In this document: one piece after another, positions 49,392-50,738 of the stretch
Numbering within the stretch: the stretch's first letter is position 1
Layout of the letters: each line of letters begins with the position of its first letter
Origin: an uncultured Gemmatimonadota bacterium
GTDB taxonomy: Bacteria > JAAXHH01
DNA: 64,000 nt
Direction: 5' to 3'
Assembly: GCA_951812955.1 (NCBI GenBank)
Contig: OX638340.1
Location: 128,001 to 192,000, forward strand
Position numbers and translations under genes: made by a program
The notes under the pieces: model-generated
What the model was told of the DNA's origin: nothing
The model's database searches: none
The model's input: the letters and a program-made list of their open reading frames with translations, nothing else

Positions 49392-50738
49392 GTGAACCCC
49401 GTTGATACATCCACCGCAGTCCCGGCATCGGCCATGCCTTCCGCCGGAGGCGACCCGGTCCCCGTCCCGGCGTTCCACGTGATGATGAAACCCCGGGGGG
49501 CCATCTGCAATCTCGATTGCAAGTACTGCTACTTCCTCGCGAAGGAGGACCTGTACCCGGGCAGCGGATTCCGCATGTCCGAAGACCTGCTCGAAGAATA
49601 CATCCGGCAGTACATCGAGGCCCAGCAGGTACCGGAAGTCACCTTTGCCTGGCAGGGCGGCGAGCCCACGCTCATGGGACTGGACTTCTTCCGCAAAGCC
49701 GTTGAATTCCAGAAAAAACACCAGAAACCGGGAACGCGGCTATTCAACTCGCTGCAGACCAACGGTACGCTCCTCGACCGGGACTGGTGCCAGTTCTTTC
49801 ATGAAAACGACTTCCTGATCGGTCTTAGCCTGGACGGCCCCCGGGCGCTGCACGACGCCTACCGGGTCGACAAGGGCGGCAAACCGACCTTCGACACCGT
49901 AATGCGCGCCGCCGAGATGATGCAGTCCCACGAGGTCGAATTCAACATACTGACCACGGTGCACGCGGCGAACGCGGGGCACCCCGTCGAAGTCTATCGC
50001 TTCATGCGGGACGTGGTGAAGACCCGCTTTATCCAGTTCATTCCTATCGTGGAGCGGGACAACGAGACAGGGTACCAGGAAGGCAACGAAGTGACGAACC
50101 GGTCGGTGACGGGGAAGCAGTACGGCCGGTTCCTGATCGGGATTTTCGACGAATGGGTACGCCGGGACGTGGGGAATATGTACGTGCAGATATTCGACGT
50201 GTCGCTCGCTGCCTGGTCGGGCCAGAGCCCGGGTCTCTGCATATTCATGGAGACCTGCGGCGATGCCCTCGCCCTGGAGCACAACGGGGATCTATATTCC
50301 TGTGATCACTATGTCGAACCGGATTACAAGCTGGGGAATATCGCCGAAATACCCATGATGGATATGGTCCTGTCCGATCAGCAGCGGGCCTTTGGACAGG
50401 CCAAACTGGACACGCTTCCGCAATACTGCCTGTCATGCGACGTGCGGTTCATCTGCAACGGGGGTTGTCCGAAGAATCGTATCATAAACACGCCCGACGG
50501 CGAACCGGGCCTGAACTACCTGTGCGAGGGGTACAAGGCCTTCTTCCACCACATCGACGGTCCCATGCAATTTATGGCCAATGAACTGCGCAACCGGCGG
50601 GCTCCCGCCAACGTGATGTCGTACATCCGCCAGCGCGAATCCGAACTTCGGAAACAGCAGCAGTTTCAATCGGTGGGGCGAAACGATCCCTGTCCTTGCG
50701 GAAGCGGCCTGAAGTACAAGCGGTGCCACGGAAGGTAG
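49392..50738 (+). CDS. Anaerobic sulfatase-maturating enzyme (radical SAM/SPASM), with a C-terminal SEC-C metal-binding motif
   Basis: [10 protein letters not shown] (Cx3Cx2C) and SPASM Cys clusters ([15 protein letters not shown]). C-terminal [16 protein letters not shown]. GTG at 49392 follows GAGGAAGAG by 8 nt. An alternative ATG lies at 49434. Confidence 0.85.
   Translation: [448 protein letters not shown]

What the first reader, a model, noticed from the sequence alone, without database searches (positions are those of the whole stretch)
49392..50738. anSME carrying a C-terminal SEC-C (SecA C-terminal-type) zinc-binding motif
After the SPASM domain the protein ends …[27 protein letters not shown]. 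The [14 protein letters not shown] pattern is the SEC-C motif, found at the C-terminus of SecA and in YchJ-type proteins. Canonical anSMEs (AtsB/ChuR types) end with the SPASM domain. An appended SEC-C module could mediate a protein-protein interaction (in SecA it contacts SecB) or ribosome/translocon proximity. Either would make sense for co-translational maturation of secreted sulfatases.
Basis: partly seen in the sequence, partly recalled or inferred. Interest (0 to 1): 0.5.

Follow-up and report, generated by a model that had tools for sequence, protein, structure and literature searches.

The report
Sulfatase maturase with SecA-type metal-binding tail
The gene encodes the radical-SAM enzyme that activates sulfatases, and its last 21 residues are almost identical to the small metal-binding knob of SecA; this fusion is common in uncultured bacteria but unstudied, and may dock the enzyme on ribosomes so it can modify sulfatases before they fold.

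Summary
Window 49392-50738 (+) encodes a 448-aa anaerobic sulfatase-maturating enzyme (anSME): TIGR03942 scores 500 bits against a cut-off of 349. Its last 19 residues hit Pfam SEC-C at 41 bits (cut-off 20.4), and its last 21 residues are 19/21 identical to the E. coli SecA metal-binding domain (MBD).

It is not a frameshift artefact. All 120 nearest homologues (69-98% identity, several phyla) keep the tail. So do 32 of 110 complete 50%-identity cluster representatives. The MBD is nearly invariant, while the linker varies in length and sequence.

- All three sulfatase genes in this operon lack any signal peptide.
- The same holds for neighbouring sulfatases in about 16 of 20 independent tail-bearing lineages.
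- E. coli has SecB and a Sec-exported AslA, yet its AslB has no tail.

Published work shows that the isolated SecA MBD binds 70S ribosomes near uL23. My best explanation (about 0.4) is therefore a ribosome-docking tag that lets the enzyme make formylglycine co-translationally on sulfatases that fold in the cytoplasm. This is inferred, not shown.

Verdict: a new variant of a known kind, of moderate interest.

The parts
49392..50738 (+). anSME gene, 448 codons plus stop. GTG start; NCBI-style calls of homologues use the internal ATG at 49434, giving 434 aa.
   Evidence: ORF list. TIGR03942 500 bits against a cut-off of 349. Start-codon conservation across related loci.
49372..49383 (+). Purine-rich Shine-Dalgarno-like stretch (GAAGAGGAAGAG) upstream of the GTG start.
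   Evidence: Read directly from the sequence. No comparable element lies before the ATG at 49434.
49500..50003 (+). Radical SAM core (residues 37-204). It includes the CX3CX2C cluster motif CNLDCKYC at 49506-49529.
   Evidence: Pfam PF04055, 60.7 bits. The three Cys are invariant in 50 and in 89 homologues.
50259..50525 (+). SPASM domain (residues about 290-378), which binds the two auxiliary [4Fe-4S] clusters.
   Evidence: Pfam PF13186, 34.4 bits. TIGR04085, 64 bits, residues 290-378. Aligns to anSMEcpe 4K36.
50604..50672 (+). Linker: a predicted single alpha-helix (residues 405-427 of the 448-aa form, [23 protein letters not shown]) between the catalytic core and the MBD.
   Evidence: AlphaFold2 helix 391-413 in 434-aa numbering, pLDDT about 85-88. 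Linker length and sequence are not conserved in distant tail-bearing anSMEs: anchor-to-CxC distance is 37-77 residues.
50679..50735 (+). SEC-C / SecA-like metal-binding domain (residues 430-448). The CxCx8CH ligand motif lies at 50691-50729.
   Evidence: Pfam PF02810, 41.4 bits against a cut-off of 20.4. 19/21 identity to E. coli SecA MBD 1SX0. R416, N417, C420, P421, C422, G423, S424, K427, K429 and C431 (434-aa numbering) are invariant in 50 homologues.
47751..49277 (+). Cys-type sulfatase (CVAAR motif) immediately upstream. No signal peptide.
   Evidence: Pfam Sulfatase from residue 4. The possible 49-aa upstream extension is not hydrophobic. Nearest models are aligned from profile position 5. 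Syntenic in relatives.
44885..46240 (+). Cys-type sulfatase (CTPSR motif). The longest ORF starts at the catalytic domain, so there is no signal peptide.
40445..41926 (+). Cys-type sulfatase (CMPAR motif). The longest ORF starts at the catalytic domain, so there is no signal peptide.
42053..43891 (+). Family-5 solute-binding protein of an ABC importer, in the same gene string. It fits uptake of a sulfated substrate for desulfation inside the cell.
   Evidence: Pfam SBP_bac_5, 258 bits. The link to uptake is an inference.

Best explanation
The protein is a functional anaerobic sulfatase-maturating enzyme. It converts the Cys of the C-x-P/A-x-R motif to formylglycine using a radical-SAM cluster and two SPASM clusters. 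A portable SecA-type metal-binding domain (Zn or Fe held by Cys3His) has been appended to it through a non-conserved linker.

Proposed mechanism:
1. The MBD docks the maturase on the 70S ribosome next to the polypeptide exit (the uL23/uL29 region), as the isolated SecA MBD does.
2. The target motif lies about 50 residues from the sulfatase N-terminus. It therefore meets the enzyme while the chain is still unfolded.
3. This matters most for sulfatases that fold in the cytoplasm. These are the signal-peptide-less ones in this operon and the TAT-exported ones in some relatives. No export chaperone holds them unfolded.

Shown here: the identity of both modules, their conservation, their distribution, and the lack of signal peptides in neighbouring sulfatases. 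Taken from the literature: MBD-ribosome binding. Inferred: that this tail binds ribosomes and that maturation is co-translational.
For: - The tail is 19/21 identical to the E. coli SecA MBD and scores above the Pfam cut-off.
- Conservation goes beyond the metal ligands. R, N, P, G-S-G, K and K are invariant or nearly so in 50 close homologues and 43 distant ones. The catalytic core of the distant set averages only 30% column identity, and the linker is unconserved with lengths of 37-77 residues. This is the pattern expected of a tethered module that binds a conserved partner.
- A SUMO fusion to the SecA C-terminal tail or MBD co-sediments with 70S ribosomes and crosslinks to uL23. Fifty-two SecB-less species keep the SecA MBD (PMC6620043).
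- The YecA/AscA MBD binds ribosomes. Methionine aminopeptidases of many bacteria, which act on nascent chains, carry the same MBD.
- Neighbouring sulfatases lack Sec signals in the window and in about 16 of 20 independent tail-bearing lineages. Two further lineages have twin-arginine signals, which also means folding in the cytoplasm.
- The tail is kept in all 120 nearest homologues across Gemmatimonadota/Latescibacterota, Zixibacteria, Chloroflexota (Ktedonobacteria, Caldilineaceae, Litorilinea), Hydrogenedentes and Nitrospirales.
Against: - There is no binding or activity data for any tailed anSME.
- Close tail-less relatives (17 loci) are also paired with signal-peptide-less sulfatases: 4 of 6 evaluable lineages. 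The tail is therefore not required for, or specific to, cytoplasmic substrates.
- Characterised anSMEs work without it.
- In this clade the linker is predicted to be a fairly rigid helix rather than a flexible tether like the SecA linker.
- MBDs have other reported roles: SecB binding, membrane association, iron binding or sensing, and DNA binding with a redox switch in YchJ.
- The signal-peptide calls are heuristic and cover only genes next to the maturase. The same enzyme may also serve secreted sulfatases encoded elsewhere in the genome.
Confidence: 0.4

Rival explanations
1. SecB or Sec-pathway coupling. The MBD binds a SecB-type chaperone or SecA/SecYEG-proximal components, so that sulfatase precursors are matured while held export-competent.
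For: - The SecA MBD is the SecB-binding site, and the YecA MBD also binds SecB.
- The basic residues of the MBD are retained in the tail.
- One tail-bearing lineage (L064) has a neighbouring sulfatase with a Sec-like signal peptide.
Against: - The three operon sulfatases, and those of about 16 of 20 tail-bearing lineages, have no signal peptide.
- E. coli has SecB and a Sec-exported AslA, yet its AslB is tail-less.
- The tail is found in phyla such as Chloroflexota, Gemmatimonadota and Latescibacterota. These are not known to me to encode SecB; this is my own knowledge and was not tested here.
Confidence: 0.1
2. Metal or redox-sensing regulatory switch. The Cys3His site binds Fe or Zn and reports iron or oxidant status. 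It switches an oxygen-labile three-cluster enzyme on or off, possibly by linker-mediated autoinhibition as in SecA.
For: - SecA-like MBDs co-purify with iron in vivo, and it has been proposed that they sense the oxidation state or the identity of the metal. Disrupting the MBD autoinhibits SecA.
- C-terminal MBD cysteines of YchJ act in a ROS-triggered switch.
- Many hosts of the tailed enzyme appear to be aerobes or sponge symbionts (lifestyle is from my own knowledge).
Against: - A pure sensor would not need the invariant surface-exposed basic residues shared with SecA.
- The linker that would have to mediate autoinhibition is not conserved.
- Nothing in the model indicates that the tail contacts the core; contacts could not be inspected with these tools.
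Confidence: 0.17
3. Extra redox centre. The CxC...CH/CC site binds iron (rubredoxin-like) or contributes to an additional Fe-S cluster, and serves as the entry point for electrons that reduce the radical-SAM cluster.
For: - MBDs bind iron.
- Most distant tailed anSMEs have the all-Cys variant CxCx8CC: 32 of 39.
- CxC motifs ligate auxiliary clusters in other SPASM/Twitch enzymes.
Against: - The sequence is nearly identical to a domain solved as a mononuclear Zn site.
- Conservation of the non-ligand surface residues is unexplained by this model.
- The site sits at the end of a linker that varies from 37 to 77 residues. That is an unlikely geometry for defined electron transfer.
Confidence: 0.07
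4. General polyanion or membrane anchor. The basic knob binds acidic phospholipids or nucleic acid and merely localises or stabilises the enzyme, with no link to nascent chains.
For: - Loss of the MBD detaches SecA from membranes.
- The basic C-terminal MBD region of YchJ binds DNA.
- The sulfatase operon includes importer components, so a membrane-proximal location is conceivable.
Against: - Non-specific charge binding would not demand near-identity to the SecA MBD across phyla.
- No membrane or DNA-related partner gene is conserved next to the maturase in the loci examined.
Confidence: 0.1

Closest known systems
Characterised anSMEs: C. perfringens anSMEcpe (PDB 4K36-4K39), E. coli AslB, Klebsiella AtsB, Bacteroides ChuR
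   Same: [quoted passage not shown] E 1e-68 to 4K36, 46% identity to AslB, and above the TIGR03942 equivalog cut-off. Encoded next to Cys-type sulfatases.
   Different: These end shortly after the SPASM domain and its C-terminal helix. 4K36 aligns to about residue 387 of the 434-aa form, and AslB ends in ...HLLVVSK. The window protein adds a 23-residue helix and a 21-residue SecA-type MBD.
SecA C-terminal tail (flexible linker plus MBD)
   Same: The MBD sequence is 19/21 identical, with the same CxCx8CH ligand set and the conserved Ser, Tyr and basic residues. It is C-terminal and is reached through a poorly conserved linker.
   Different: The carrier is a maturase, not a translocation ATPase. 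In this clade the linker is a predicted helix of about 23 residues, where SecA has a flexible linker. No ATPase or preprotein-binding domains are present.
YecA/AscA, YchJ and MBD-bearing methionine aminopeptidases
   Same: These are other non-SecA proteins carrying the same MBD. The YecA MBD binds SecB and ribosomes. MetAP acts on nascent chains at the ribosome. Together they set a precedent for the MBD as a portable docking module.
   Different: Their catalytic or chaperone domains are unrelated. YchJ was recently assigned a transcription-factor/redox role, so the function of the MBD depends on context.
Eukaryotic/aerobic FGE (SUMF1), acting on newly synthesised sulfatases
   Same: Functional analogy: formylglycine must be installed before the sulfatase folds. 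It is described as a cotranslational modification (abstract of PMC11452390, listed; otherwise my own knowledge).
   Different: FGE is an unrelated enzyme, copper- and oxygen-dependent. It is located in the ER lumen, and no ribosome-docking module is involved.

Membership tests
Anaerobic sulfatase-maturating enzyme (TIGR03942 / radical SAM-SPASM) | Score above the curated equivalog cut-off of the family model | tested here: met
   500.2 bits against a cut-off of 349.45, covering residues 29-397.
Anaerobic sulfatase-maturating enzyme (TIGR03942 / radical SAM-SPASM) | CX3CX2C radical-SAM cluster motif | tested here: met
   CNLDCKYC at 49506-49529. All three Cys are invariant in 89 homologues. Pfam PF04055.
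Anaerobic sulfatase-maturating enzyme (TIGR03942 / radical SAM-SPASM) | SPASM domain with the cysteines for two auxiliary [4Fe-4S] clusters | tested here: met
   PF13186 and TIGR04085 hits. Conserved Cys at 269, 275, 290, 332, 335, 341, 345 and 364 in 434-aa numbering. Aligned to 4K36.
Anaerobic sulfatase-maturating enzyme (TIGR03942 / radical SAM-SPASM) | Genomic association with sulfatases bearing the C/S-x-P/A-x-R motif | tested here: met
   Three Cys-type sulfatases lie in the same gene string, with motifs CMPAR, CTPSR and CVAAR. They are syntenic in relatives.
Anaerobic sulfatase-maturating enzyme (TIGR03942 / radical SAM-SPASM) | Catalytic conversion of Cys/Ser to formylglycine | not testable with these tools
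   Requires biochemistry.
SEC-C / SecA-like metal-binding domain (PF02810) | CxCx8C[HC] ligand motif and a score above the Pfam gathering cut-off | tested here: met
   41.4 bits against 20.4, full-length match 1-19/19. Motif at 50691-50729.
SEC-C / SecA-like metal-binding domain (PF02810) | Conserved non-ligand residues of the SecA MBD: the Ser and Tyr/Phe equivalent to E. coli S889 and Y893, and flanking basic residues | tested here: met
   [20 protein letters not shown] aligned to 1SX0 with 19/21 identity. S424, K427 and K429 are invariant.
SEC-C / SecA-like metal-binding domain (PF02810) | Binds one Zn or Fe ion | not testable with these tools
   Requires metal analysis of purified protein.
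SEC-C / SecA-like metal-binding domain (PF02810) | Binds the 70S ribosome and/or SecB | not testable with these tools
   Known for the SecA and YecA MBDs only.

The most novel reading that the evidence does not exclude
The SecA-type MBD is a portable ribosome-exit-site docking tag. Here it recruits a radical-SAM enzyme to translating ribosomes, so that formylglycine is installed co-translationally on sulfatases that fold in the cytoplasm. That would make tailed anSMEs the first radical-SAM protein-modifying enzymes shown to work at the bacterial ribosome. It would also add a member to the small set of bacterial nascent-chain enzymes (PDF, MetAP).
Probability: 0.35. Interest if true: 0.7.

Novelty: new variant of a known kind. 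Interest (0 to 1): 0.45.

Why it matters
Formylglycine sits at the bottom of the folded sulfatase active site, so the maturase must reach the chain before it folds. How cytosolic anSMEs win that race has not been explained, especially for sulfatases that are not held unfolded for Sec export.

A large, conserved anSME subfamily with a tail nearly identical to the SecA ribosome/SecB-binding knob gives a concrete hypothesis that is cheap to test. It would also extend the biology of the MBD beyond the Sec pathway.

There is a practical angle. Co-expressing tailed or untailed maturases could change the yield of active recombinant sulfatases, including the many from sponge symbionts and soil Chloroflexota.

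Tried and rejected
- Frameshift or read-through artefact: rejected. 120/120 homologues carry the tail, and the stop codon follows it directly.
- Tail presence versus signal-peptide status of neighbouring sulfatases: tested on 115 loci. No difference was seen. Tail-bearing lineages: about 16/20 with no signal. Tail-less lineages: 4/6 with no signal. The tail-less sample is small, and all loci are close relatives of the query, so this neither supports nor refutes a link.
- Census of other proteins carrying the same MBD. A profile of 43 tails returned only 35-70-aa contig-edge fragments named SecA, YecA or YchJ, with no architectures. I could not test whether other maturases, such as FGE, also carry the tail.
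- Taxonomy of distant tailed representatives via cluster members gave only two names, Latescibacterota and Planctomycetota.
- Literature. No paper in the library links SEC-C to anSME or sulfatase. The anSME structure paper (Goldman 2013) is not held. Two reviews had no usable statement on unfolded substrates.
- The automated signal-peptide script under-called twin-arginine signals in L085 and L089, where the sulfatase profile alignment ran into the signal. These were corrected by eye.
- The 29% figure for tail-bearing clusters is probably an overestimate for the family. The query included the tail, which lifts tailed hits in the ranking.

Full report
**Observation**

The window has an ORF at 49308-50738 on the + strand.
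- In about 20 related genomes the equivalent codon is GTG or ATG.
- Several of them have in-frame stops just upstream.
- One relative (L019) has lost the internal ATG that NCBI-style calls use.
- A GAGGAAGAG stretch precedes the GTG.

The 448-aa product matches:
- Pfam Radical_SAM (residues 37-204)
- Pfam SPASM (residues 291-350)
- Pfam SEC-C PF02810 over its last 19 residues, at 41.4 bits against a cut-off of 20.4
- NCBIfam TIGR03942, anaerobic sulfatase maturase, at 500 bits against a cut-off of 349, covering residues 29-397

The closest solved structure is C. perfringens anSME 4K36 (E 1e-68). It aligns only to about residue 387 of the 434-aa form. The last 21 residues are 19/21 identical to the solved E. 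coli SecA zinc-binding domain 1SX0. The CxCx8C[HC] pattern occurs once in the six-frame translation of the whole window.

**Not an artefact, and not rare**

All 120 nearest homologues (69-98% identity) carry PF02810 and the motif. The named ones include Gemmatimonadetes, Latescibacteria, Zixibacteria, Chloroflexi (Litorilinea, Anaerolineae) and Handelsmanbacteria.

A scan of one genome per species returned 34 loci:
- The 98%-identical ones are sponge- or coral-associated Gemmatimonadota/Latescibacterota MAGs.
- More distant tailed copies lie in Ktedonobacteria, Caldilineaceae, Hydrogenedentes and Nitrospirales.

In a library of 1.84 billion 50%-identity representatives, 42 of the best 150 hits have the tail. 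Among the 110 with a complete catalytic core, 32 (29%) have it. This share is probably inflated, because the query itself included the tail.

On a rough neighbour-joining tree of the cores, the tail needs at least 19 gains or losses over 111 tips. Shuffled labels give a mean of 28.5 and a minimum of 23. The tail is thus clustered but patchy, which fits a module that is repeatedly gained or lost. Some apparent losses may be truncated gene calls.

**Anatomy of the tail**

In 50 close homologues the invariant tail residues are R416, N417, C420, P421, C422, G423, S424, K427, K429 and C431 in 434-aa numbering. In 43 distant tails the consensus is [19 protein letters not shown]. No column of the preceding 20 residues reaches 50%. 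The catalytic cores of that same distant set average only 30% column identity.

Other features:
- The distance from the conserved LCxGY anchor to the CxC ranges from 37 to 77 residues.
- The fourth ligand is His in this clade (117/120) and Cys in most distant ones (32/39). Both variants are known in SecA.
- AlphaFold2 (mean pLDDT 74.6, low around the cluster-binding loops) predicts a single helix at 391-413 followed by a small knuckle, both at pLDDT about 85-88.

The picture is a near-invariant knob on a variable stalk.

**Context**

The maturase ends a co-directional gene string:

| Coordinates | Product |
|---|---|
| 40445-41926 | sulfatase |
| 42053-43891 | family-5 solute-binding protein |
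| 44051-44875 | PhyH dioxygenase |
| 44885-46240 | sulfatase |
| 46286-47695 | conserved 469-aa protein with no family hit |
| 47751-49277 | sulfatase |
| 49392-50738 | anSME |

All three sulfatases are Cys-type, with motifs CMPAR, CTPSR and CVAAR.

For two of them, the longest possible ORF begins at the first strand of the catalytic domain. The third has at most a 49-residue, non-hydrophobic extension. In most relatives that extension is absent, and the gene starts at MTRPNILF. Their nearest curated models are choline-sulfatase and PRK13759 arylsulfatase, both below cut-off. Both align from profile positions 2-10. These sulfatases therefore have no signal peptide, and I infer that they act inside the cell.

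**Wider test of the 'secreted sulfatase' rationale**

I fetched 80 metagenomic loci using a profile of tailed and untailed anSMEs. With the genome loci this gave 115 loci: 95 tailed, 17 untailed and 3 undetermined.

I then built a sulfatase HMM and scored the N-termini of neighbouring sulfatases with a hydropathy and twin-arginine heuristic, corrected by eye. Loci were collapsed at 80% maturase identity.

| Neighbouring sulfatase class | Tailed lineages (20 evaluable) | Untailed lineages (6 evaluable) |
|---|---|---|
| No signal peptide only | about 16 | 4 |
| Twin-arginine signal | 2 (L085, L089) | 1 |
| Sec-like signal | 1 (L064) | 0 |
| N-terminal membrane domain | 1 (L084) | 1 |

Two conclusions follow:
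1. The tail is mostly found beside sulfatases that fold in the cytoplasm, not beside Sec substrates.
2. Within this clade the tail does not discriminate, because untailed relatives have the same kind of neighbours.

As a reference point, E. coli K-12 AslB (411 aa, 46% identical) has no MBD, although its partner AslA has a classical signal peptide. E. coli is also the organism in which MBD-SecB binding was defined.

**What the module is known to do**

Published work gives the following:
- The SecA MBD binds SecB.
- A SUMO fusion to the SecA C-terminal tail co-sediments with 70S ribosomes. Binding is lost when the metal-binding cysteines are modified, and the fusion crosslinks to uL23 at the tunnel exit.
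- Fifty-two SecB-less species keep the MBD with its basic surface residues.
- The YecA/AscA MBD binds both SecB and ribosomes.
- MBDs co-purify with iron and may sense metal or redox state. Many bacterial methionine aminopeptidases carry one.
- YchJ, with two MBDs, was recently described as a ROS-responsive transcription factor.
- No paper in the searchable library connects SEC-C with anSME or sulfatases.

**Most likely mechanism**

I commit to ribosome docking, at about 0.4. The appended MBD would place the maturase at the exit tunnel, so that the C-x-P/A-x-R motif, about 50 residues from the N-terminus, is oxidised before the sulfatase folds around it.

Basis for each step:
- Established knowledge, not re-derived here: formylglycine lies buried in the folded active site, and anSME binds an extended peptide.
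- Shown here: the modules, their conservation pattern and the cytoplasmic nature of the neighbouring sulfatases.
- Taken from the literature: MBD-ribosome binding.
- Inferred: the link between them.

Rivals are listed separately with their tests:
- SecB or Sec coupling (about 0.1)
- a metal or redox switch (about 0.17)
- an extra electron-transfer site (about 0.07)
- a generic membrane or polyanion anchor (about 0.1)

The remainder is 'something else'.

**Comparison and membership**

By every sequence-level criterion tested, the protein is a member of the anSME family and its tail is a member of PF02810. Catalysis, metal content and partner binding cannot be tested with these tools. It works like a canonical anSME with an added targeting or regulatory module. 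The closest analogues for the module's use are the SecA C-terminal tail, YecA and MBD-bearing MetAPs.

**Novelty and verdict**

The architecture is visible in precomputed Pfam annotations, so it is not new to databases. It appears undescribed and uncharacterised in the literature I could search. It is a new variant of a known kind.

It is of moderate interest (0.45). The fusion is real, ancient, widespread and strongly conserved, and it suggests a specific and easily tested answer to how maturases beat sulfatase folding. However, both parts are well known and the proposed mechanism is still inference.

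Noticed in passing
window 46286-47695 (+): A 469-aa ORF sits between two sulfatase genes and is syntenic in relatives. It has no Pfam, NCBIfam or PDB sequence match and no signal peptide. It may be an uncharacterised partner enzyme of the sulfatase operon.
   Followed up: partly
L084 7141-10077 (-) and L091 10067-12979 (+): These are about 970-aa CSPTR-type sulfatases next to anSMEs. They carry an N-terminal extension of about 200 residues with a Gly/Val-rich hydrophobic segment (GWGGGVGLVVGLF...). This suggests a membrane-anchored sulfatase of unknown topology.
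   Followed up: no
window 50807-51520 (-): A bacterial homologue of the GPP34 / Golgi phosphoprotein 3 family (Pfam PF05719, 154 bits) lies convergent with the maturase gene.
   Followed up: no
window 36335-38563 (-): A 742-aa fusion of a pyridine-nucleotide-disulphide oxidoreductase domain with AIRS/AIRS_C domains (SelD/ThiL-like).
   Followed up: no
window 33409-34173 (-) and 44051-44875 (+): Two PhyH-family Fe/2-oxoglutarate dioxygenase genes. One lies inside the sulfatase string, next to a family-5 solute-binding protein. A second SBP_bac_5 gene is at 30241-31953. Together they hint at a catabolic island for an imported sulfated compound.
   Followed up: no
L007, L010, L034, just upstream of locus position 8001: In three related genomes the N-terminus of the maturase carries a tandem duplication of about 14 codons (…PASSMPSAGxxxxPASSMPSA). 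The N-terminal 25 or so residues are otherwise poorly conserved.
   Followed up: no
L089 1-4297 (+) and L085 1793-3442 (+): Sulfatases next to tailed anSMEs that carry twin-arginine (TAT) signal peptides, for example MKKKKISRRTFLKEVGAGALAAP and MKRREFVKSIGWASLAG. TAT export implies folding, and hence maturation, in the cytoplasm.
   Followed up: partly
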